From positions 37,072 through 101,071 of the IMG/VR virus record IMGVR_UViG_3300035145_004174: a stretch of DNA of 64,000 nucleotides. One strand, written 5' to 3'. A program made the position numbers and the translations under genes. This DNA comes from a virus. Position 1 is the first letter of the stretch; every line of letters starts with the position of its first letter. Positions 3-61,142 of the stretch are shown here, piece after piece. The notes below the pieces were generated by a model that worked only from the letters and a program-made list of their open reading frames with translations, did no database searches and was not told the origin of the DNA.

Positions 3-1751
3 GGAATACATCCTTCTGGAATTGCAATATCTTTTAGTAAAATATCTGAAATATGTCCTCTTCAAAAAAGTAACGATGGCTCTCTGGTTACTGGATATGA
101 CATGAACTGGGTCTCAGAACTCATGGTTAAATTTGATATACTCGGATTGCGAACATTGTCAGCCATTTATTCTTGCTGTAATAATTTAAAAATCGATCCT
201 ACTGATATAAATCTCGATTCTGATGATATTTATTCTAACCTTGATGATTTGAGAACTCCTCATGGTCTTTTTCAAATTGAGGCTAGTGCAAATTTTATGG
301 TTTGTAAAAAAATAAGACCTTCTAGTCTTGAGCAATTGAGTGCTGTTATTGCTATAGCTAGACCAGGAGCTATGGATTTTGCAGATTTATATAAAGACTA
401 TAGAGATACTGGCAGACACCAAAGTGTTGATTCTTTTTTTGACGATGTATTGTCTTATACTGGCGGCATACCATTATACCAAGAGCAGCTCATGAAGATG
501 GCTGTAAAGGTTGGATTCAGCCTAGAAGAATCAGAAGAATTGAGGCGTATCGTTGGGAAGAAAAAGGTAAAAGAGATGCCTAAATGGAAAAAGAAAATAG
601 AAGAAAAAATAAAATCCAACAATTTGTCCAGCAACATTTCTGATGTTCTTTGGAAGGTTGCTGAAGATAGTGCTAATTATTCTTTCAATAAAAGTCACTC
701 TATTTCTTATGCCATATTGGCGGCTTGGACTATATATTTAAAATTCAAACACCCTCAAGACTTTTTCCTTAGCTTATTAAAAATGACTAAGTACGAGCCT
801 TCTCCACAAGATGAGATAAACAAAATATCTCAAGAGTTAGCTCATTTTGGAATTTCTTTACTTTCTCCAGATTTAGCTCTTTCTGAGATGGATTTTACTA
901 TAGAAGGTTCTGATATACGCTTTGGCCTCAATAGCATAAAAGGAATAAGCGAAAAGTCTTTAGAAAAATTAAAAGATTTCAGAAACTCTAGCAAGCCAAA
1001 CAAGTATGATACTTTTCTATCAGCGAAAGAGTCGGGTCTTAACATTGGAGTTTTATCTGCTTTAATTCAAGCTGGAGCATTATCTTCCTTCAAAACAAAC
1101 AGACCTCGCTTGGTTTTAGAGGCCCAAGTTTTTAACTTATTAACAGACAGGGAGAAAAGAAATTTTATAAAAATTGGTCCAAAATATAATTTTGATATTT
1201 TAAATTCCATACATGATTGCGTTCAAAACCAAATAATTGGAGACGACAACAAGCCTATCATGAAAGACTCTAGGTTTGCTACATTAAAATCCAAATACAA
1301 ATCTTATAAATCTATTTATGAAAAAAATAAAAAATATGAAGATTTTGCTAATTGGTTTTTTGAAAAGACCTTATTAGGGTTTAGTTATAGCAAAAATCTC
1401 TCTGAATGTTTCGGTGCTAATAAAAATTTCAAAACATCCTTGCATTTCAACTCTTGCGAAAAAGGAGATCGAGCTAAATACATTGGTGTGGTTGAAGATA
1501 TTATTTCTAGAAAAAGCAAGAAAAATAATAATTATATTAAAATGACAATAGGTGACGAATACGGTCGATATGATGCTTTAATTTTAGATGCTAAAGAAAA
1601 AAATCTTACTAAATTTTTATCATCAAATACTATGCCTGAAAAAAATAGCATAATTGTTTTGCTTGGTAGCAAAGGTGAAGATATATTATTTGTTAATCAA
1701 GCATCTGTTATAGATGAAAAAATATATATGAAACTTTCTGAAATTAGATAA
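3..1751 (+). CDS. dnaE: DNA polymerase III alpha subunit (family C), 5'-truncated by the window
   Basis: Frame is open from position 3 (GIHPSGIAI..., the DnaE G.H..G motif), in frame with the 102 ORF. Motifs VKFDILGL, LFQIE, AIARPG, PLYQEQLM, YSFNKSHS, IRFGLNSIKGI and a C-terminal OB fold. Confidence 0.95.
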   Translation, partial: GIHPSGIAISFSKISEICPLQKSNDGSLVTGYDMNWVSELMVKFDILGLRTLSAIYSCCNNLKIDPTDINLDSDDIYSNLDDLRTPHGLFQIEASANFMVCKKIRPSSLEQLSAVIAIARPGAMDFADLYKDYRDTGRHQSVDSFFDDVLSYTGGIPLYQEQLMKMAVKVGFSLEESEELRRIVGKKKVKEMPKWKKKIEEKIKSNNLSSNISDVLWKVAEDSANYSFNKSHSISYAILAAWTIYLKFKHPQDFFLSLLKMTKYEPSPQDEINKISQELAHFGISLLSPDLALSEMDFTIEGSDIRFGLNSIKGISEKSLEKLKDFRNSSKPNKYDTFLSAKESGLNIGVLSALIQAGALSSFKTNRPRLVLEAQVFNLLTDREKRNFIKIGPKYNFDILNSIHDCVQNQIIGDDNKPIMKDSRFATLKSKYKSYKSIYEKNKKYEDFANWFFEKTLLGFSYSKNLSECFGANKNFKTSLHFNSCEKGDRAKYIGVVEDIISRKSKKNNNYIKMTIGDEYGRYDALILDAKEKNLTKFLSSNTMPEKNSIIVLLGSKGEDILFVNQASVIDEKIYMKLSEIR

Positions 1752-4132
1752 TGGAAAAATACAACCTAACACCTAGGGTTCAAAAAGTAATATCTTTAGC
1801 TAGAGAAACTGCTGATAATTTAAAATGTGATATAGTAGATTTAGATCATTTATTATTTGCGGTTCTAGATAGCGGCCAGTCTACAATTGTTAGTTTCTTT
1901 GAAGACTTGAACATATCTTTAGATGATTTTAAAACATTTGTATTTAACAATATACAAGGTGATTTTTTTAGCAGTTCTGATTCCTCAAAAATTTCTTTTT
2001 CTAAAGATTTTAAGGATGCGTTTTCGGAGTCTAAGGTTTTGTGTGAAAAATTAAATCACAATTATATAGGGGTTGAGCATTTATTTTATTCTTTGATATG
2101 TCATGAAAAATCTCCTTTAATTGATTTTTTCAAAACTTTTAAAGTTAGCGTTAAAAAATCAAAAGAAAAACTTGAGAAGTTTTTTAAGACTGGCGAATGG
2201 GACGAAACAAAAAAAAGAAAAAAAGTAAGCCCTCCTCCTATCCCCCAACAGGACAACTCAAACCAATCTTCAAATTTAGAATCTTATTGCAAAAATTATA
2301 ACTTAATGGCTCTTCGTGGTCATTTTGATAAAGTCATATTTAAAGAAGAAGAATTGTCTAAAATATCTGAAATATTATGTAGGAGAAATAAAAACAATCC
2401 TGTATTGGTTGGGCTTCCTGGCACAGGAAAAACTACTTTGGTCGAGGGTCTAGCTCAATCTATAGTCAATGGAACTTGCACCAGTTTTCTTTCTAATAAA
2501 ATTATCTATGAGTTGGATCTTGCTGCCATGATAGCTGGAACTAAGTATAGAGGTCAGTTTGAAGAAAGACTAAAAGGTTTGCTAAAAGAAGTTTCGAATT
2601 CTAATAATATAATTCTATTTATTGATGAGATTCACACTATAATAGGGGCGGGTTCTGCGGAGGGCAGTTTAGATGCCGCAAATATATTAAAACCTTCTTT
2701 AGCTAGAAATAAAATTAAATGTATAGGAGCTACCACCCCCAAAGAATTTAAAAGATTTTTCACGAAAGATCCTGCTTTAGAAAGGAGATTTGAGGAAGTC
2801 CAAGTGGTGCAACCTTCTCCTAAAGAAGCTTACGAGATATTGAAAGGCATCAGTTCTCAATATGAAAAATTTCACCATGTAGTATACAGAAAAAATTCTT
2901 TAAAGCTAGCTGTAGACTTATCTGTTAGATATATAAATGATCGACAGTTGCCAGATAAAGCTATAGACATCATAGATCAAGCTGGAGCCAAAGTTAAAAT
3001 GAGAAATTTTAAAAAGCCAGAAAAAGCTCTACTTCTTGAGAAAAAGATAGATGATTCTATGCATAAAGATTATGATGGTTTTGACGAAGAGCAGGAGGAT
3101 TTATTGTCTCAATATAAGTCTGTATTAGAATCTTGGACAAATTCTTATCAAAATAAAAAATTCTTTGTAACTAAAGATGATATTTACGATGTGATATCAT
3201 CAAGGACAGGCATACCAGTCGGAAACTTAACCGAGAAAGAATCTAATATTTTATTAAATTTAAATAATTCTTTAAATAAAATTGTTTTTGGTCAAAGTAA
3301 AGCTTGTTCTGCCGTTTCTCAATGTATACTTAGGTCAAAAAGCGGACTTACAGAAGGGAGCAAACCCGTGGGATCTTTTCTCTTCTTAGGTCAGACTGGT
3401 GTTGGCAAAACTTTCATGGCTAAAGCTTTAGCCAAGCATGTATTTGGTAGCGAAGATAATTTAATACATATAGATATGTCAGAATATTCTGAGAAGATAA
3501 ACATATCAAGACTTATAGGCTCTTCTCCAGGTTACGTTGGTTATGAAGATGGAGGTCAATTAACTGACAAAATCAAAGCTAAGCCTTATTCTGTCGTACT
3601 TTTTGACGAGATTGAAAAAGCTCATCCAGATGTTTTAAATGTTCTCCTTCAGCTTTTAGATGAAGGTAGGCTTACTGATAATTTTGGAAGAGTTTCCGAC
3701 TTCACTAATACCATTGTTATATTAACTAGTAATATAGGAGCGAGATCTTTGACTAAAAATACTTCAGTAGGGTTTGTTTCTTCAAAAAAAGAATCAATGA
3801 GTGACGCTCGCAAGGAAGCTGAAAAAAAATTAACTCCAGAATTAATTAATAGACTTGATGAAATTATAGTTTTTAATTCTTTCTCTTTAAAAGATATAAA
3901 ATCATTTTTTATCAATGAGCTTAAGCAACTAAAATCTAAAGTAAAAAAGAACAATAAAATTATTTTAGAAATAGAGCCAGAAATGGTTGATTTTTTATCA
4001 GAAGAAGCTTATAATAAAAACTTAGGTGCTAGACCAGTAAAAAGAATGATTCAAAAATATATTGAAAATGATGTATCCAAATGGATAATAAATCAACAAA
4101 CTGGAAAACTGACAATTAAAAAACCAATTTAA
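1751..4132 (+). CDS. clpC: ClpC/ClpA-like ATP-dependent Clp protease ATPase subunit
   Basis: Clp N-repeats (EHL), NNPVLVGLPGTGKT, AGTKYRGQFEERL, LFIDEIH, second Walker A GQTGVGKT, PPG-like SPGYVGY, LFDEIEKAHPDV, SVGF ClpP-docking loop. TAATG overlap with dnaE. Confidence 0.93.
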   Translation: MEKYNLTPRVQKVISLARETADNLKCDIVDLDHLLFAVLDSGQSTIVSFFEDLNISLDDFKTFVFNNIQGDFFSSSDSSKISFSKDFKDAFSESKVLCEKLNHNYIGVEHLFYSLICHEKSPLIDFFKTFKVSVKKSKEKLEKFFKTGEWDETKKRKKVSPPPIPQQDNSNQSSNLESYCKNYNLMALRGHFDKVIFKEEELSKISEILCRRNKNNPVLVGLPGTGKTTLVEGLAQSIVNGTCTSFLSNKIIYELDLAAMIAGTKYRGQFEERLKGLLKEVSNSNNIILFIDEIHTIIGAGSAEGSLDAANILKPSLARNKIKCIGATTPKEFKRFFTKDPALERRFEEVQVVQPSPKEAYEILKGISSQYEKFHHVVYRKNSLKLAVDLSVRYINDRQLPDKAIDIIDQAGAKVKMRNFKKPEKALLLEKKIDDSMHKDYDGFDEEQEDLLSQYKSVLESWTNSYQNKKFFVTKDDIYDVISSRTGIPVGNLTEKESNILLNLNNSLNKIVFGQSKACSAVSQCILRSKSGLTEGSKPVGSFLFLGQTGVGKTFMAKALAKHVFGSEDNLIHIDMSEYSEKINISRLIGSSPGYVGYEDGGQLTDKIKAKPYSVVLFDEIEKAHPDVLNVLLQLLDEGRLTDNFGRVSDFTNTIVILTSNIGARSLTKNTSVGFVSSKKESMSDARKEAEKKLTPELINRLDEIIVFNSFSLKDIKSFFINELKQLKSKVKKNNKIILEIEPEMVDFLSEEAYNKNLGARPVKRMIQKYIENDVSKWIINQQTGKLTIKKPI

Positions 4133-10177: not shown

Positions 10178-10228
10178 GTTGTGACGGTAAAACTTCAAAC
10201 AACTAATTTATTAAACTATTAAAATATT

Positions 10229-10699
10229 ATGGCAGGACAAGGATTAGCAAGAGCAGCGGTAGCAGCTGGTAGAGCAATAGGGCCAGCAGTCTCGAAACTT
10301 GGAAAACGGGCAGCTCAAGAGAGCGGAAAATACAGTAAAGCAGGAAAAGAGGCTGGGTCGAATGTAGTATCAAATACTGGTGCTTATGTAGACGACCCTA
10401 GTAGACCTTTTCAAACAGGAAACAAAATTATAGATAATATAGGTAACTTCATTTTTGGAGATAACAGTCCGACAGATGATGATTTTAAACCAGGTGGTAA
10501 ATACAATCCTTTTCCACCAGATCATCCTGCTCCAGGGTCTGGAGATGAAGGAAATCCACCAGGCGGAGAAGGTAAAGATGGAAAAGGCAGCAAAGCCAGT
10601 ATCGCTGCAGCAAAAGAATTACAAAATCAACAAAATTTACCTAAAGGCAGGCAGGACTTCCCAGACATTCCTGCTAGTAGCTGGCCTATGTTTGGATAA
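10229..10699 (+). CDS. Gly/Pro/Ala-rich low-complexity protein (possible virion/internal protein)
   Basis: 156 aa, amphipathic basic N-terminus, G/P-rich middle; first gene of the duplicated module. Confidence 0.6.
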   Translation: MAGQGLARAAVAAGRAIGPAVSKLGKRAAQESGKYSKAGKEAGSNVVSNTGAYVDDPSRPFQTGNKIIDNIGNFIFGDNSPTDDDFKPGGKYNPFPPDHPAPGSGDEGNPPGGEGKDGKGSKASIAAAKELQNQQNLPKGRQDFPDIPASSWPMFG

Positions 10700-35993: not shown

Positions 35994-36070
35994 ACAGGAG
36001 TAGCTCAGTTGGATAGAGCATCTGCCTTCTAAGCAGAATGTCGTGAGTTCAAGTCTCACCTCCTGTGCCA
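35994..36070 (+). tRNA. tRNA-Arg(UCU)
   Basis: Acceptor ACAGGAG/CTCCTGT, D-arm GCTC/GAGC, anticodon loop CTTCTAA, T-loop TTCAAGT, encoded CCA. Confidence 0.95.
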
Positions 36071-50909: not shown

Positions 50910-53222
50910 ATGATTATCACACAAAAAAGTAAAGAACAAGTCGTTCAATCACATGACTTTGAACAAGTCAACTGCACCATTGATGCCGAAGATATGCGCT
51001 ATGTAGCATCTCTTCTTCGTAACAACTACTCTAATACTCGTCTTGCAGTAGTTCGTGAGATTAGTGCCAATGCTATTGATGCAAACAAAGAGGCAGGAGT
51101 TACTCGTCCTATCGAGATCAAGTTGCCATCAACTATGACTCCAACATTTGCAGTTCGTGACTTTGGGGGTGGACTTAGCCAAGAAGATGTGTTTGGTCTT
51201 TATTCCAAGTATGGTAAGTCAACCAAGCGCACATCAAACAATTATATTGGTGCATTCGGTATTGGCAAGTTTGCTCCATTATCTTATGGTGACAACTTCA
51301 CTTGTGTATCTTATCATGGTGGATTAAAAACATCTTACAATGTATTCGTTAATGATGATGACGATACAAAGATTGTTAAGTTGCATGAAGAACCAAGCAA
51401 CGAACCAACAGGTTTATCTATCGAAGTTGCAGTTGCAGAAGGTGATATATCAGAATTTACTGATGTTGTCAAGAAATTTTTCAGATTCTTTCCCGAAGAT
51501 GAAATGCCAAAATTTATTGGTCAAGAAGATGACTTTATTCCCGAAATTAAAACTTCATTAAAAAGCGAGAAAGATAATTGGTTTATCTTAGAAAATGATG
51601 ATAATGGATATTATGGTTATAATCATTCTTGTCATGTTATCATGGGTAAAGTTACTTATCGTCTCGACAGAAGTGCGGTAAATGTAAGTAACTTTATTAA
51701 AGACGATAAAGCTAAACAAATCGTAGGTGAATTATTAGAAGAAAGAAACTTCTATCTTCGTATGCCAATAGGTTCTGTAAAATTGCATCATAGTCGTGAA
51801 GCATTAGAATATAACAAGACAACACAAAAAGAATTATGCAAAGCATTATATAATGCAAGTCAAGAAATTCTTGAAATCGCTAAGTTGAAACTTGCAGATA
51901 GTGCAGATTTGTGGGAAGCAAAAAGAAATCATGCAGTTATAGTCAATAGTTTATCTCATTCAATGCGCAGGATTTTTGATAATGCTTTTGAATGGAACGG
52001 CGTAAAGATTGAAAATGCTCATTTCTCTGTTCCTTATGATGAATCAGAGAACATTACCATTACTAGATCAATCAGAACTAAAGACAATGACGCTCGCAAT
52101 GGTTACAAAGTTACTTCTAGTAAGCAAAACAAAGCATTTTGTCAAGACAATTATTTGTTCGTATATCAAGATTTAGACTCTTCTCATGGCAACAATCTTC
52201 GTGCTAGAACATTGTTCAATGAAGATGAAAATTTAGAAGAAATCTTTTTCATTAATCCTACCAATCAAGATGGTATTGATTATATGAAGAACGAATGGAG
52301 TTTTAATTTAATTGACTCAAAGCATATTCGTTATGCATCGAAAATTGAGAAAGAAAAACCTGTTTACAATCGTGTAAGTGGAGAGAGCAGAGCATCTATA
52401 CCATTATTCAAAATGGTCAAGAAAAAAGGTTATGCTCATAAAAATGTAGATTATTGGTCAAATGTTAATGATCCAATCAATTCTGTTGAAGCAGGAGATA
52501 TGGAAGGTTCTATTGATGGAAAATTAATCTATGTTCCAATCACTCGTTATCAAATTGATTGCCCTAAAAATGAATTATGGGACTTGGATAAAGTATATAG
52601 TTTGTCTAGTCAAGTTCGTGCAGTTGGCAAGTCAGCAGATAATGAAGAGTTGGCAAATTTAGTTGTCTTCGGTGTTCGCAAAGCAGATGTTAAGAAATTA
52701 GATAAATCTAATTGGGTTAGTTTTGCTGATTTTATGCTTGACCATTACAAGGAATATGTTAGAGAGAACAAAAGAAATTGTTCTATTACATTCAGAAGGG
52801 TATTAACCTCAGAATCACAATCAGATTATCAAAAGATTATGGACTCTCTTAGTCCTATTGAAAATGTGTTTGTTAATCCAAATATGAATTTAAATTTTCT
52901 CTCAGAGGATCATCTCTTGCATCAAGTGAATGACATCTGTTCAGTAATGAATACCGCAGATCATAAGCAAAAAGCATCTTCTTCAGTTATGTATATTGCT
53001 CTACATGATCGCCAATGGTTAAAGGATACTTTAGATGTTGACGTTGATTCAGAATCAATGCTCAAAACTATTGAGAAAGTAACAAGCAAGTATTCTCTTT
53101 TAAGTTTTATTGCCGATTCCATTTCTTACTATGGCGCAGTCAAAGATCATTACAGACATGGCAATATTCAAACCAAGTTTGAAGGCTACATAAATTTGTG
53201 TGATAAAGGAGATGGGGAGTAA
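50910..53222 (+). CDS. rIIA: rIIA-like protein (GHKL/Hsp90-type ATPase N-domain)
   Basis: YSN...AVVREISANAIDA, VRDFGGGLS, YGKSTK..SN..IGAFGIG, SREALEY; followed by an rIIB-like gene. Confidence 0.85.
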   Translation: MIITQKSKEQVVQSHDFEQVNCTIDAEDMRYVASLLRNNYSNTRLAVVREISANAIDANKEAGVTRPIEIKLPSTMTPTFAVRDFGGGLSQEDVFGLYSKYGKSTKRTSNNYIGAFGIGKFAPLSYGDNFTCVSYHGGLKTSYNVFVNDDDDTKIVKLHEEPSNEPTGLSIEVAVAEGDISEFTDVVKKFFRFFPEDEMPKFIGQEDDFIPEIKTSLKSEKDNWFILENDDNGYYGYNHSCHVIMGKVTYRLDRSAVNVSNFIKDDKAKQIVGELLEERNFYLRMPIGSVKLHHSREALEYNKTTQKELCKALYNASQEILEIAKLKLADSADLWEAKRNHAVIVNSLSHSMRRIFDNAFEWNGVKIENAHFSVPYDESENITITRSIRTKDNDARNGYKVTSSKQNKAFCQDNYLFVYQDLDSSHGNNLRARTLFNEDENLEEIFFINPTNQDGIDYMKNEWSFNLIDSKHIRYASKIEKEKPVYNRVSGESRASIPLFKMVKKKGYAHKNVDYWSNVNDPINSVEAGDMEGSIDGKLIYVPITRYQIDCPKNELWDLDKVYSLSSQVRAVGKSADNEELANLVVFGVRKADVKKLDKSNWVSFADFMLDHYKEYVRENKRNCSITFRRVLTSESQSDYQKIMDSLSPIENVFVNPNMNLNFLSEDHLLHQVNDICSVMNTADHKQKASSSVMYIALHDRQWLKDTLDVDVDSESMLKTIEKVTSKYSLLSFIADSISYYGAVKDHYRHGNIQTKFEGYINLCDKGDGE

Positions 53223-53240
53223 AATCCCCTCTCCAAACTT
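53208..53240 (+). terminator. GC-rich hairpin over the rIIA stop (terminator or stabiliser)
   Basis: GGAGA-T-GGGGA GTAAAA TCCCC-TCTCC, then AAACTTTTT. Confidence 0.55.
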
Positions 53241-53316
53241 TTTAAAAAAAATCTTGACTTATTAAAAAAATCAATCTATACTCTTAACATAACATTAAAT
53301 TAGAAAGCTAAAAATT

Positions 53317-54501
53317 ATGAATAAAGTTCCATACATACAAAGCGAAAATTCACTCACAATCTTTTGGGAAGGTAAACCATATACTCTCCGCAAAGATCAT
53401 CCTAATTTCCACAATGCCAAGAAAGCTATTCTTGATGGTGAATATGATCGTTTAGGTGATTTAGTTGACATTGCTAAGTCAGTTGAAGATTTTGTAGAAG
53501 GTGACATCGAAGTTAAAGACGAAGTTGTTTATTACAAGGGGCATCGTCTTCATGGTGTTGTTGTAGATAAATTAATTGAAATGCTTCGTGCAGGTGCAAA
53601 AGATTCTGCTCCAATCGTTAATTTCATTACTAGATTGCAAGCTAATCCAAGTGCTAATAGTGTTGCAGAATTGTATACATTCCTTGGTTACAAATCTTTA
53701 CCAACAACCCCCGAAGGTCTTTGTCTTGGTTACAAGGGTGTTCAAGGTGATTATTGGAGTAGCACAGGCAATGCAGATACCATTGTTGTGCAAGGTCAAA
53801 CCAACGAGCGTCATCAAATTCTCAATGAAGTTGGCACAACTATCGAAGTTGCACGTCGTTGTGTAGATGACAACAAAGATAACCATTGCAGTTTCGGTCT
53901 TCATGTCGGTTCATACGATTACGCCAACGATTGGGCAGGAGAAAGTGGTAGATTGCTTGTTGTAGAGTTTGATCCTGCTGATGCAGTCTCCGTTCCAACT
54001 GATTGTGACTTTCAAAAGCTACGTGTCTCAAAGTACAGAGTTGTGTCTGACATTACAGATACTCGCAAAGAGTTAAATAGACCTGTATACGAGGCTAATA
54101 AACCTATTTATGGATCGGATGATGACATCAACTTCGATGAAGACGAAGAAGATGAAAACGATTGGGTAGATCAAGGCGAATGGGATGATGATGATTCTGA
54201 TTGGACTGAAGATGAACATCGTGACTTTGTAGCTAAAGAATTTGAAGATGATGATGAACCCGATGGTTACAATGGTGAAGAAGATAATCGTATTTCTTTA
54301 GTTGACTCATATAATGTCTATATTGGAAATCGCTTGCACAATGGTCAAAAAGTAACATTAAAAAATCTTGCAGATATTAAAGTTTCAAGAGATGAAAACT
54401 TGACTTGTTCTGAAATTATGAATATTGTCAATAAAGAAACTAATTATTTCGTCAGATGCGATGACGATAGACCTCTTTATTTATATGAAGTAGAAGTGTA
54501 A
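53317..54501 (+). CDS. rIIB: rIIB-like protein
   Basis: NPS..SV.ELY.FL, PEG..LGYKGV..DY, CSFGLHVGS..YA, DPADAVSVPTD...KLRVSKY; acidic linker. Confidence 0.88.
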   Translation: MNKVPYIQSENSLTIFWEGKPYTLRKDHPNFHNAKKAILDGEYDRLGDLVDIAKSVEDFVEGDIEVKDEVVYYKGHRLHGVVVDKLIEMLRAGAKDSAPIVNFITRLQANPSANSVAELYTFLGYKSLPTTPEGLCLGYKGVQGDYWSSTGNADTIVVQGQTNERHQILNEVGTTIEVARRCVDDNKDNHCSFGLHVGSYDYANDWAGESGRLLVVEFDPADAVSVPTDCDFQKLRVSKYRVVSDITDTRKELNRPVYEANKPIYGSDDDINFDEDEEDENDWVDQGEWDDDDSDWTEDEHRDFVAKEFEDDDEPDGYNGEEDNRISLVDSYNVYIGNRLHNGQKVTLKNLADIKVSRDENLTCSEIMNIVNKETNYFVRCDDDRPLYLYEVEV

Positions 54502-59592: not shown

Positions 59593-59622
59593 ATTATAAC
59601 ACACATTTATAATTTATGTCAA
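59593..59622 (-). promoter_or_regulatory. consensus sigma70 promoter on the minus strand (antisense)
   Basis: Reverse complement reads TTGACA-18-TATAAT with a TG extension; no minus-strand ORF follows in the track. Confidence 0.55.
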
Positions 59623-59963
59623 GCAAAAAATTTGATTTAAAAGAATTGCGATTTGAGCAACAAGAATATTTAAAAGAATTAAAACAAATAAGAGATGGTA
59701 TAGATTCAGATTATTTTAATTTTACTTTATCAGAGAAAGCAGAATTATATAAACTATTTAATAAACAAATATACTTTATAGAAGGAGTAGTAAATACAAT
59801 AGCAAATTTAATAGAAGAGTTAAATACAAGTACAGAAGAAACAGAAACAAAACAATTAGAAGATAGAGCGATTAAACTATTTAATTTCTTAATAGAGGAA
59901 TTAGATGAAAAGCAAAAAGAAATAGATGAAATATTAAATAATTACTTTACAGAGGGTTCTTAG
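59616..59963 (+). CDS. coiled-coil hypothetical protein
   Basis: 115 aa; its stop codon lies inside the tRNA. Confidence 0.5.
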   Translation: MSSKKFDLKELRFEQQEYLKELKQIRDGIDSDYFNFTLSEKAELYKLFNKQIYFIEGVVNTIANLIEELNTSTEETETKQLEDRAIKLFNFLIEELDEKQKEIDEILNNYFTEGS

Positions 59964-60027
59964 CTCAGTTGGTTAGAGCATCCGACTCATAATCGGCAGG
60001 TCGAGAGTTCGAGCCTCTCAGAACCCA
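59954..60027 (+). tRNA. tRNA with CAU anticodon, most likely Ile2 (lysidine), otherwise elongator Met
   Basis: GGGTTCT/AGAACCC acceptor, GCTC/GAGC D-arm, CCGA-CTCATAA-TCGG, T-loop TTCGAGC. No initiator features; CCA not encoded. Confidence 0.9.
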
Positions 60028-60047
60028 CTATTTAAATTAAACAAATA

Positions 60048-60627: not shown

Positions 60628-60713
60628 TTGATTTTTCTAAATAAGAGTCTATAATAAAACAAATAATTGAGAAACTAAACTCAATCAAATCAAATAAGTC
60701 GTTCTTTTACATT
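60628..60713 (+). promoter_or_regulatory. sigma70 promoter + hairpin + boxA-like antitermination leader
   Basis: TTGATT-16-TATAAT; ATTGAG/CTCAAT hairpin at 60666-60685; GTTCTTTTACA at 60701. Confidence 0.55.
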
Positions 60714-60720
60714 TTCATAT

Positions 60721-60823
60721 AGGGGAGTTATGCAGAACCGCCTTTGGTTCTGTGGCAGAAGTAATAGATTTAGGGTTAATCATAATAATGTCTTGCTGAG
60801 GTGAGATGAATCTTCTGCCCCCT
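60721..60823 (+). ncRNA. candidate multi-stem structured RNA
   Basis: AGGGG/CCCCT ends, GCAGAACC/GGTTCTGT hairpin, GGCAGAAG/CTTCTGCC stem enclosing a TCTTGC-TGAG-GTGAGA hairpin. Confidence 0.5.
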
Positions 60824-60852
60824 GCTATTTTGGAAGAGCTAGCTACTCTTCC

Positions 60853-61034
60853 TGTGGGTGACTGAATTAACCTGTCGTGAGCGGGTTAAGGTATGCGATT
60901 CTCTGTGGTGGAGTGCCAATGGACAAATGTCTGAGGTAGGACAAACACCAAGTCTAATCGTAGTTGGAAGTAGGTAATCATTGAACTGCTGTTCACGCCG
61001 AAAACTTGAGGGTATACAGGAATCCCTCCCCACA
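60853..61034 (+). ncRNA. manA-like RNA motif
   Basis: TGTGGG/CCCACA closing stem; GGTGACTGAA, TTAACC/GGTTAAGGT, CGATT/AATCG, GTGGTG...ACCA, GAGGG-TATACAGGAAT-CCCTC. These blocks match my recollection of cyanophage manA RNAs. Confidence 0.6.
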
Positions 61035-61052
61035 CATTTTCCATCCCTACAT

Positions 61053-61097
61053 ACCCTCTCTCTGTTTTTTCCTTTCGGCAGGGAGAGGGTTTTTTTT
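61053..61097 (+). terminator. intrinsic terminator closing the ncRNA operon
   Basis: ACCCTCTCTCTG...CAGGGAGAGGGT followed by a T tract. Confidence 0.85.
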
Positions 61098-61142
61098 GCA
61101 TTTTTATTTGACAGGGGTTCTCTTATATGGAATATTGTTGGT

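What the first reader, a model, noticed from the sequence alone, without database searches (positions are those of the whole stretch)
60628..61097. Dedicated ncRNA operon: promoter, hairpin + boxA leader, two structured RNAs, terminator
Seen: a 470-nt GC-enriched unit without a credible ORF, bounded by a sigma70 promoter and a strong terminator. It has a hairpin then GTTCTTTTACA, RNA 60721-60823, a GGAAGAG/CTCTTCC hairpin, and RNA 60853-61034. Known: boxA/Nus antitermination protects untranslated rRNA-type transcripts from Rho. Inference: the phage makes a processed polycistronic ncRNA early in infection. The same promoter + boxA-like start recurs at 63863-63909.
Basis: partly seen in the sequence, partly recalled or inferred. 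Interest (0 to 1): 0.72.

Follow-up and report, generated by a model that had tools for sequence, protein, structure and literature searches.

The report
Phage manA RNA gene, rRNA-style leader
This gene-free stretch of an uncultured marine phage is a self-contained gene that makes the already catalogued "manA" folded RNA behind a leader copied from ribosomal-RNA operons, with a second, previously uncatalogued folded RNA plugged into a swappable slot in front of it.

Summary
Window 60628-61097 is a non-coding transcription unit. It has a sigma70-type promoter, a small hairpin, a boxA-like element (GTTCTTTTACA), a 102-nt branched RNA ("RNA1"), a 207-nt RNA and a strong terminator.

It is filed as a cis-regulator. 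Here it ends in its own terminator, and the next gene has its own promoter.

All 26 distinct related units in viral contigs keep the order promoter, boxA, manA. Most also keep the terminator and the following promoter. The space between boxA and manA is empty in 16 and holds about 9 unrelated stem-closed modules in the rest. Even the closest relatives differ there.

RNA1 is one such module. I found 7 further homologues, always in this slot, and 9 base pairs show compensatory changes. It has no Rfam match.

The same boxA also precedes phage tmRNA genes and a tRNA-like RNA. It matches a real rrn boxA from a marine gammaproteobacterial MAG.

Nus-dependent antitermination, early timing and processing remain inferred. 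A 2026 preprint reports that manA RNAs form RNA-only cages in vitro.

This scan has already noted free-standing manA genes with boxA leaders in at least 41 other genomes.

The parts
60628..60655 (+). sigma70-type promoter, TTGATT-16-TATAAT
   Evidence: Consensus scan, 10 of 12 matches. Related units have TTGACA-17-TATAAT at the same relative position.
60666..60685 (+). Leader hairpin (boxB-like position): 6-bp stem AUUGAG/CUCAAU with an 8-nt A-rich loop
   Evidence: Folds in isolation and within the full transcript. Present in 21 of 26 related units, with one compensatory change TTGAG/CTCAA to TTAAG/CTTAA. Absent from 5 short-leader units, so it is dispensable.
60701..60715 (+). boxA-like element, GTTCTTTTACA followed by TTTT
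   Evidence: G[AT]TCTTT[AT]A[CT]A is present in 26 of 26 distinct manA units. It is 10 of 11 identical to the rrn boxA GTTCTTTAACA of a Cellvibrionales MAG. It is predicted single-stranded in the full transcript. The same motif directly precedes phage tmRNA genes.
60722..60823 (+). RNA1: uncatalogued multibranch RNA with a closing helix GGGG/CCCC, a hairpin, and a second helix that carries two hairpins, one with the conserved loop GCYGAGGU
   Evidence: Seven further distinct homologues, all in the same slot. RNAalifold gives 29 pairs, 9 with compensatory changes; 96.5% of cells pair, against 50-56% when partners are slid. No Rfam match at E <= 10. Single copy in its own contig.
60832..61038 (+). 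manA RNA (Rfam RF01745), including the P1 hairpin 60832-60852
   Evidence: cmscan 80.2 bits (gathering 55.2), E = 8e-19, model positions 1-192 of 192. 25 distinct homologues aligned, with covarying helices.
61053..61097 (+). Intrinsic terminator: 14-bp stem followed by U8
   Evidence: -22.2 kcal/mol, z = -4.26. It forms independently in the full-length fold. A terminator in the same position appears in most related units.
61108..61136 (+). Separate promoter (TTGACA-17-AATATT, TG-extended) for the downstream gene 61143-61532. This marks the boundary of the unit.
   Evidence: TTGACA immediately after the terminator is conserved in most related units.
63863..64000 (+). Second unit: TTGACA promoter, boxA-like GTTCTTTAATA (63899-63909), and the start of a tRNA-like RNA cut off by the contig end
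   Evidence: Sequence. The complete copy in relative L161:1764-1880 folds with a long acceptor-like stem and a T arm, GCAGG-UUCGACU-CCUGC. ARAGORN and Rfam find nothing there.

Best explanation
Window 60628-61097 is a free-standing gene for a stable, untranslated RNA. The steps below are marked as shown or inferred.

1. Inferred from consensus only: host sigma70 RNA polymerase starts a few bases after 60655.
2. Shown: the nascent leader presents a small hairpin and then a single-stranded boxA. This is the same order as in bacterial rrn leaders.
3. Inferred by analogy with rrn operons and CRISPR arrays: the boxA recruits host NusB/NusE and their partners. That would shield the roughly 440-nt untranslated transcript from Rho. 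It could also hold the 5' strand near the polymerase until the distant 3' strand of manA's closing helix emerges (GUGGG with CCCAC, about 170 nt apart).
4. Shown: the polymerase then transcribes a lineage-variable, stem-closed module, which here is RNA1.
5. Shown: it then transcribes the conserved manA RNA.
6. Shown: transcription meets a strong intrinsic terminator, and the downstream gene has its own promoter.
7. Inferred: manA therefore acts in trans as an abundant product, not as a switch for the next gene. That fits the preprint report that manA RNAs self-assemble through kissing loops.

Whether RNA1 is cut away from manA or stays attached as a 5' appendage is not known.
For: Identity and boundaries:
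- manA is identified by cmscan.
- The terminator is strong, and the next gene has its own promoter.

Conservation of the architecture:
- 26 of 26 distinct related units in IMG/VR have a promoter and boxA upstream of manA. Most also have a terminator and then a new TTGACA promoter.
- All 22 occurrences of GATCTTTAACATTTT that lay behind a promoter-like site or the leader hairpin (20 had a promoter match) were followed by manA.
- The downstream genes fall into at least 7 unrelated families. That argues against control of one particular gene.

boxA as an RNA-level signal:
- Its distance from the promoter varies from about +8 in short leaders to about +45 in long ones. A DNA-level promoter element would be expected to sit at a fixed distance.
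- The same motif sits directly 5' of phage tmRNA genes in L303 and L008, and before the tRNA-like RNA at 63899.
- A genuine rrn leader (L306) reads hairpin, then GTTCTTTAACAAT, then 13 nt, then GAGTGTGGGTGC, then 16S. manA's 5' strand, CCTGTGGGTGAC, resembles that boxC. The boxB-boxA-boxC order and the role of boxC in the leader-trailer helix are described in PMC10250234.

manA as a product in its own right:
- In cyanophage S-CREM1, manA lies flush between tRNA-Leu and tRNA-Asn, so there too it looks like an excised product.
- The manA loops GUGGUG and ACCA are complementary and covary: GUGGCG goes with GCCG or GCCA.
- A cryo-EM preprint reports assemblies held together by kissing loops (10.64898/2026.07.01.735769).

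Expression:
- Salt-marsh RNA-library contigs cover 60680-60905 and 60683-60833 with one difference each, bridging leader, RNA1 and manA. Pieces of the manA core from relatives reach depth 40-87.
Against: - No experiment shows Nus binding, antitermination, the transcript ends or the timing of expression.
- The window's boxA has U where rrn boxA has A at position 8. The host, and therefore its own boxA, is unknown.
- A densely folded RNA is a poor Rho substrate, so protection from Rho may not be the point of the boxA.
- The RNA-library evidence comes from assembled contigs. One of them also contains a relative's promoter sequence (table 7), so DNA carry-over or read-through from upstream is not excluded.
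- In two related units (L008, L032) there is no terminator and an ORF starts 10-13 nt after manA. A 5'-UTR arrangement therefore exists within the family.
Confidence: 0.72

Rival explanations
1. manA is a riboswitch or other cis-regulator here, as Rfam files it. The terminator at 61053-61097 would be its expression platform, and read-through would control the phrog_586 gene at 61143-61532.
For: - The published interpretation is cis-regulatory (PMC2864571).
- A terminator follows the RNA within about 15 nt.
- The G-rich 3' arm of the terminator could pair for about 5 bp with manA's CUCCC.
- In L008 and L032 an ORF follows manA directly, with no terminator.
Against: - The downstream gene has its own TTGACA promoter directly after the U-tract, both here and in most relatives.
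- Downstream genes belong to at least 7 unrelated families.
- The 14-bp terminator forms independently in the full-length fold, and no competing structure appears.
- In S-CREM1, manA is flanked by tRNAs, not by a coding region.
- An rrn-type leader is unusual for an mRNA 5' UTR.
Confidence: 0.1
2. The boxA-like motif has nothing to do with Nus factors. It would be a conserved site for something else, such as a phage protein, an RNase processing signal, or a pause or initial-transcript element shared by this phage group's small-RNA genes.
For: - Only sequence resemblance links it to boxA.
- The motif varies at positions 2, 8 and 10.
- It precedes several different ncRNA genes. A processing or maturation signal would fit that pattern equally well.
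Against: - It is 10-11 of 11 identical to a genuine rrn boxA.
- It is invariant at G1 and at the TCTTT core.
- It is single-stranded in the predicted fold.
- It is preceded by a hairpin and followed by a boxC-like GU-rich strand, in rrn order.
- boxA is reported to be necessary and sufficient for rrn antitermination-complex formation (PMC10250234), and a boxA insert recruits SuhB in a non-ribosomal context (PMC4807359).
Confidence: 0.15
3. RNA1 is not a functional RNA in its own right. It would be a selfish or neutral insertion, such as a small palindromic mobile element, or merely a processing stem that happens to sit in a permissive spacer.
For: - The slot is empty in 16 of 26 units and is filled by about 9 unrelated stem-closed modules. 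These differ even between phages whose neighbouring gene is 89-93% identical.
- Each module's ends pair, as terminal inverted repeats would.
Against: - RNA1 is single copy in its contig.
- All 8 distinct members occupy exactly this transcribed slot, in the same orientation.
- Internal helices covary, and the loops AGUUA and GCYGAGGU are conserved. That points to selection on the folded RNA, not only on its ends.
Confidence: 0.2

Closest known systems
manA RNA motif (Rfam RF01745; Weinberg et al. 2010, PMC2864571)
   Same: The 3' RNA at 60832-61038 matches the full model above the curated threshold. It shares the conserved core sequences and helices, and its homologues covary.
   Different: It is filed as a cis-regulatory riboswitch candidate in 5' UTRs of Photobacterium and cyanophages. 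Here it is a separate unit with its own promoter, an rrn-type leader and a terminator, in a phage with no close cultured relative (best RIIA identity 26-28%). It also carries a variable 5' module.
rrn operon leader (boxB-boxA-boxC) and other Nus/boxA-protected untranslated transcripts such as CRISPR arrays
   Same: The order is the same: promoter, hairpin, boxA, then a GU-rich strand that pairs with a distant 3' strand. The boxA core is the same as in a marine gammaproteobacterial rrn leader. The transcript is untranslated and structured.
   Different: The product is about 0.4 kb of phage RNA, not rRNA. The hairpin is dispensable. The boxC-like strand lies 33-35 nt (or more, with an insert) after boxA, against 18-19 nt in Enterobacteriaceae. 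No Nus dependence has been shown.
manA embedded in a cyanophage tRNA array (S-CREM1, OP535465; PMC9964418)
   Same: It is the same RNA family in a phage, among other small-RNA genes, in a position that points to a released stable RNA.
   Different: In S-CREM1, manA is flanked flush by tRNA-Leu and tRNA-Asn, so tRNA-processing enzymes would define its ends, and no boxA is visible. Here a leader and a terminator define the unit.
manA RNA-only oligomers and 60-mer cage (Ren et al. 2026, bioRxiv 10.64898/2026.07.01.735769)
   Same: It is the same family. The complementary hairpin loops that covary in this lineage are the kind of contact those assemblies use.
   Different: Those are in vitro assemblies of other manA variants. 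Nothing here shows assembly of this variant or assembly in cells. The preprint still calls manA putatively cis-regulatory.

Membership tests
manA RNA (RF01745) | Covariance-model score at or above the curated gathering score, over the whole model | tested here: met
   80.2 bits against 55.2, model positions 1-192 of 192, E = 8e-19.
manA RNA (RF01745) | Helices maintained by compensatory changes among homologues | tested here: met
   The 25-sequence alignment A3 shows, for example, GCCTGT/GCGGGC changing to GCTCGT/GCGAGC and to TCTCTT/TCGAGA, and three P1 variants.
manA RNA (RF01745) | Location in the 5' UTR of a gene that it regulates (Rfam type 'Cis-reg') | tested here: not met
   A terminator (-22.2 kcal/mol plus U8) and a new promoter separate it from the next gene. 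Downstream genes are unrelated across loci. This is a contextual annotation, not part of the RNA's definition.
rrn-type boxA antitermination leader | boxA sequence in the transcribed leader, matching the rrn consensus | tested here: met
   GTTCTTTTACA matches rrn GTTCTTTAACA (L306) at 10 of 11 positions. The motif is present in 26 of 26 related units, with G1 and TCTTT invariant.
rrn-type boxA antitermination leader | boxB-like hairpin 5' of boxA, and a boxC-like strand 3' of it that forms a leader-trailer helix | tested here: inconclusive
   The hairpin is present in 21 of 26 units. CCUGUGGGUGAC resembles boxC (GAGUGUGGGUGC in L306; UCUGUGUGGG in PMC10250234) and pairs with the 3' CCCAC. The spacing differs, however, and the resemblance could be coincidence.
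rrn-type boxA antitermination leader | Binding of NusB/NusE and Nus-dependent resistance to Rho | not testable with these tools
   This needs biochemistry or genetics in the (unknown) host or in a surrogate.
Riboswitch with a terminator expression platform | Mutually exclusive pairing between the aptamer and the terminator | tested here: inconclusive
   In the full-length MFE fold the terminator and the manA helices form side by side, with no competing structure. Only a 5-bp alternative pairing can be drawn by eye. An MFE fold cannot exclude a kinetic switch.

The most novel reading that the evidence does not exclude
The unit is the in vivo gene for a self-assembling RNA particle. Under this reading the phage mass-produces manA protomers behind an rRNA-style leader, and these assemble through kissing loops into decamers or cages. 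The hypervariable slot between boxA and manA would then supply a swappable 5' appendage (RNA1 here) that is displayed on, or packed into, the particle. Such an appendage could serve as a multivalent decoy or sponge in the arms race with the host, which would explain why it turns over faster than the neighbouring genes.
Probability: 0.12. Interest if true: 0.9.

Novelty: new variant of a known kind. Interest (0 to 1): 0.6.

Why it matters
manA has been listed as an orphan riboswitch candidate since 2010. A 2026 preprint shows that it builds RNA-only cages in vitro, but gives it no biological context.

Three features of this locus are what one would expect of a high-copy structural or trans-acting RNA, and not of a switch:
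- a dedicated promoter, an rrn-like leader and a terminator;
- the same leader in front of phage tmRNA genes and a tRNA-like RNA;
- manA placed inside a tRNA array in a cyanophage.

This makes the question 'what is manA for?' directly testable. One can express this roughly 440-nt unit, map its ends, test for Nus dependence, and look for particles.

The hypervariable slot, together with a new conserved RNA family (RNA1) inside it, also suggests a modular RNA platform in phages. Phage use of host rRNA-type antitermination signals for several ncRNA genes would itself be a small but new point.

Tried and rejected
- BLASTN of the unit, and of a relative's unit, against 50,697 deposited phage genomes gave only chance matches of 33-41 bases. 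No cultured phage in that collection carries this manA variant at detectable DNA identity.
- tblastn with the RIIA-like protein gave at most 28% identity, so no taxon or host could be assigned.
- A permissive Rfam scan (E <= 10) of the window stretch gave nothing for RNA1. A scan at E <= 1 of eight loci carrying other slot modules gave nothing for the modules: no ribozyme, tRNA-like or sRNA family.
- The covariance model of RNA1, run over 44 manA-bearing loci, found only its own 8 members and one identical copy. The other slot modules are therefore not divergent RNA1.
- I tested RNA1 as a multicopy mobile element. It is single copy in the 101-kb contig.
- I considered a small ORF in RNA1 (GAGGUG, 3 nt, then AUG, 19 codons). 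The AUG is absent in the homologues, so I rejected it.
- I considered the overlapping ORFs (117 aa and 71 aa on the minus strand, 39 aa on the plus strand). They are not conserved in L139, so I rejected them.
- I tried to infer the host from bacterial genomes. A manA-specific gapped pattern hit three MAG contigs binned to three different phyla or classes (Cellvibrionales, Rickettsiales, Neomarinimicrobiota), plus one chance hit in Dermabacter. The conflicting bins point to mis-binned phage contigs, so I drew no host from them.
- Counts of the boxA 11-mer in those three MAGs were at chance level. One of the hits nevertheless proved to be a true rrn leader and was used for comparison.
- A literature search for the exact boxA strings gave nothing relevant.
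- RNA-library contigs left parts of the flanking genes uncovered. As the tool warns, this cannot be read as absence of expression.
- No back-spliced or circular joint appeared in those contigs. The one joint found (60911 to 60979) is a relative's replaced segment.

Full report
**What is in the sequence.** Window 60628-61097 is a G+C-enriched island, 0.40-0.47 against 0.21-0.33 in the flanks. It lies in a region of small genes near the end of a 101-kb IMG/VR viral contig estimated to be 73% complete.

In order, the island contains:
- a sigma70-type promoter, TTGATT-16-TATAAT, at 60628-60655;
- a 6-bp hairpin at 60666-60685;
- GTTCTTTTACA at 60701-60711, the only exact match to TCTTTWACATTTT in the window;
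- a branched RNA at 60722-60823;
- a 207-nt RNA at 60832-61038;
- a 14-bp terminator followed by U8 at 61053-61097 (-22.2 kcal/mol, z = -4.3).

A second promoter, TTGACA-17-AATATT at 61108-61136, follows directly and serves the gene at 61143-61532 (PHROG 586, function unknown).

The overlapping reading frames are not genes. The 117-aa minus-strand frame is broken in the closest relative, and homologues differ by indels that are not multiples of three.

**Identity of the 3' RNA.** cmscan against Rfam 15 places 60832-61038 in manA (RF01745) at 80.2 bits, against a gathering score of 55.2, over model positions 1-192. It is the only manA copy in the contig.

Weinberg et al. 2010 describe manA as a probable cis-regulator and riboswitch candidate found in marine metagenomes, two gammaproteobacteria and T4-like cyanophages (PMC2864571). 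The 2023 paper on cyanophage S-CREM1 repeats that description (PMC9964418).

**Comparative anatomy.** Exact-pattern scans of IMG/VR with a manA core motif and with the leader motif, plus a search with the downstream protein, gave 26 distinct units.
- All 26 carry G[AT]TCTTT[AT]A[CT]A upstream of manA and behind a TTGAC-type promoter.
- 21 have the hairpin between promoter and boxA. In 5 'short-leader' units the boxA follows the promoter directly.
- The hairpin shows one compensatory change, TTGAG/CTCAA to TTAAG/CTTAA.
- All 22 occurrences of GATCTTTAACATTTT that lay behind a promoter-like site or the leader hairpin (20 had a promoter match) were followed by manA.
- In most units, a C-rich spacer, an intrinsic terminator and then a new TTGACA promoter follow manA.
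- The first downstream ORFs fall into at least 7 unrelated families.
- Two units (L008, L032) lack a terminator and have an ORF 10-13 nt after manA.

**The slot and RNA1.** The distance from boxA to manA is 33-35 nt in 16 units. In the other 10 it is 83-143 nt, and the extra sequence belongs to about 9 unrelated kinds. Each kind folds as a module closed by a terminal helix (z = -1.3 to -4.9).

The three closest relatives of this phage (L138, L139, L140) have a downstream protein 89-93% identical to the window's. All three keep the promoter, hairpin, boxA, manA and terminator. Each carries a different module from the window and from one another.

RNA1 is single copy in its contig and has no Rfam match. 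A scan of bacterial genomes first turned up a homologue on a MAG contig (L172). A pattern built from the shared 5' end then recovered more from metagenomes. In total there are 8 distinct members (window, L172, L199, L214, L235, L277, L287, L292), every one lying between boxA and manA.

RNAalifold predicts 29 pairs in 6 helices, and 9 pairs show compensatory changes. On that structure, 96.5% of cells pair, against 50-56% when the partners are slid by 1-3 columns. The 9 doubly-changed pairs compare with 4.0 +/- 1.3 in shuffles and 1-3 in the slid controls. With only 8 related sequences this is supportive evidence, not proof. The conserved unpaired stretches are AGUUA after the closing helix and a hairpin loop, GCYGAGGU.

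A covariance model of RNA1 found no further members among 44 manA loci. None of the other modules matches any Rfam family.

**Is the boxA a boxA?** Five observations bear on this.

1. *Sequence.* One of the MAG genomes contains a genuine rrn leader (L306). It reads TTGACT-17-TAGAAT, a hairpin, GTTCTTTAACAAT, 13 nt, GAGTGTGGGTGC, and then 16S rRNA 224 nt after the boxA. The phage motif matches this boxA at 10-11 of 11 positions.
2. *Order.* The sequence hairpin, boxA, GU-rich strand is the rrn order boxB-boxA-boxC (PMC10250234). manA's CCUGUGGGUGAC resembles boxC and, like boxC, forms the 5' strand of a long-range helix with the 3' end of the RNA (the bracketed pairs in the Rfam model).
3. *Position.* The motif lies at variable distances from the promoter. 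That fits an RNA signal better than a promoter element.
4. *Context.* The same motif directly precedes two phage tmRNA genes. In L303 the tmRNA scores 131.6 bits and starts 5 nt after the motif. In L008 the arrangement is TTGACT-17-TATACT, then GTTCTTTAACA, then tmRNA. The motif also precedes the tRNA-like RNA at 63899.
5. *Accessibility.* The motif is unpaired in the predicted full-length fold.

All of this is inference. No tool here can show Nus binding, and the host is unknown. boxA is reported to be necessary and sufficient for rrn antitermination-complex formation (PMC10250234), and a boxA insert recruits SuhB in a non-ribosomal context (PMC4807359). The 'RNA chaperone' idea, in which boxA tethering helps the leader strand find its distant partner, comes from the rrnTAC model discussed in PMC10250234.

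**Stand-alone product or switch?** Several observations favour a product in its own right:
- the unit has its own terminator, and the next gene has its own promoter;
- downstream genes are diverse across loci;
- the leader is of the rrn type;
- in S-CREM1, manA (10215-10429) lies flush between tRNA-Leu (which ends at 10213) and tRNA-Asn (which starts at 10429) inside a tRNA array;
- the preprint of Ren et al. (10.64898/2026.07.01.735769) reports cryo-EM structures of manA decamers and a 60-mer cage held together by kissing loops.

In this lineage two manA hairpin loops, GUGGUG and ACCA, are complementary and covary: GUGGCG is found with GCCG or GCCA in L042, L048 and L061. Whether that contact forms within one molecule or between molecules cannot be told from sequence.

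**Expression.** Six salt-marsh metatranscriptome runs hold parts of the stretch, and four were laid on it.
- One contig, with one difference, spans 60680-60905, covering leader, RNA1 and the start of manA.
- Another, also with one difference, spans 60683-60833.
- Pieces of the manA core from relatives have contig depths of 40-87.

These are assembled contigs from RNA libraries. One also contains a relative's promoter sequence, so DNA carry-over or upstream read-through is possible. I count this as weak support for transcription and co-transcription. It says nothing about transcript ends, processing or timing.

**Verdict.** The interpretation as a dedicated non-coding unit with an rrn-style leader is well supported by comparison. 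The claims of Nus-dependent antitermination, early expression and processing remain inferred.

The main RNA is a known family in a genetic context that contradicts its database label. RNA1 is a new small family that occupies a fast-evolving slot. Earlier reports of this scan describe free-standing or enlarged manA genes with boxA-like leaders in at least 41 other genomes. The architecture is therefore recurrent in uncultured aquatic phages, and I reached the same reading independently here. Specific to this window are the RNA1 family and the demonstration that the slot content differs between near-identical phages.

Noticed in passing
window 63863-64000; complete copy in L161:1725-1880: A second small unit: a TTGACA promoter, boxA-like GTTCTTTAATA, then a roughly 105-nt tRNA-like RNA. 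It has a 9-10-bp acceptor-like stem with one bulge and a canonical T arm (GCAGG-UUCGACU-CCUGC), but non-canonical arms where the D and anticodon arms would be. ARAGORN and Rfam do not call it. The contig end cuts it off in the window.
   Followed up: partly
L303:1130-1510 (-) and L008:10941-11448 (-): Phage-encoded tmRNA genes (Rfam 131.6 and 102.6 bits) in manA-carrying contigs are each directly preceded by a promoter and the same boxA motif (GTTCTTTAACA). In these phages the boxA appears to mark ncRNA genes in general.
   Followed up: partly
leader region, e.g. L013:928-1005, L016:8038-8115 (-), L014:8371-8448 (-), L010:8232-8309 (-), L277: In several lineages the loop of the leader hairpin is complementary to the 3-5 nt just 5' of boxA, and the two sides change together: GGGC/GCCC, GAGGC/GCCTC, GGAT/ATCC, AGCT/AGCT, AGTC/GACT. 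This suggests a pseudoknot or an alternative longer hairpin. In the window only ACU/AGU can pair.
   Followed up: no
window 60853-60863 compared with L306:1525-1537: The invariant 5' strand of manA, CCUGUGGGUGAC, resembles the boxC of a gammaproteobacterial rrn leader (GAGUGUGGGUGC). Both form the 5' strand of a long-range closing helix. This may be mimicry or coincidence.
   Followed up: partly
L006, L078, L110/L138 (slot module 'type A') and L009: One slot module is a hairpin whose stem covaries (GUUGAU/AUUGAC to GUUGGC/GCCGAC) around a conserved loop, CUGAGUAUCGG. A similar GCUGAGUAAUCGG occurs inside the larger module of L009, and GCUGAGG occurs in an RNA1 loop. GCUGAG may be a shared docking motif.
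   Followed up: no
L168 (S-CREM1, OP535465: 9745-10643): In this cultured cyanophage the array reads wcaG RNA, tRNA-Met, tRNA-Leu, manA, tRNA-Asn, abiF motif, tRNA-Gly. manA abuts both neighbouring tRNAs, so tRNA-processing enzymes would release it.
   Followed up: partly
window 59954-60028: A tRNA-Met (CAU) gene starts inside the last codons of the ORF 59616-59963, about 600 nt upstream of the manA unit. It has no promoter or boxA of its own. A tRNA-Arg (UCU) lies at 35994-36070.
   Followed up: no
window 102-1751, 1751-4132, 50910-54501: The phage encodes a large DNA polymerase fragment (PHROG 405), a 793-aa Clp/Lon-type ATP-dependent protease homologue (PHROG 4871, E = 4e-236), and RIIA/RIIB homologues. 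The best RIIA identity to any deposited phage is 26-28%, so it has no close cultured relative.
   Followed up: partly
L169, L170, L172 (MAG contigs): manA units of this type sit on contigs binned into Cellvibrionales, Rickettsiales and Neomarinimicrobiota MAGs. The conflicting taxonomy and low G+C (0.30-0.37) suggest phage contigs mis-binned into bacterial MAGs.
   Followed up: partly
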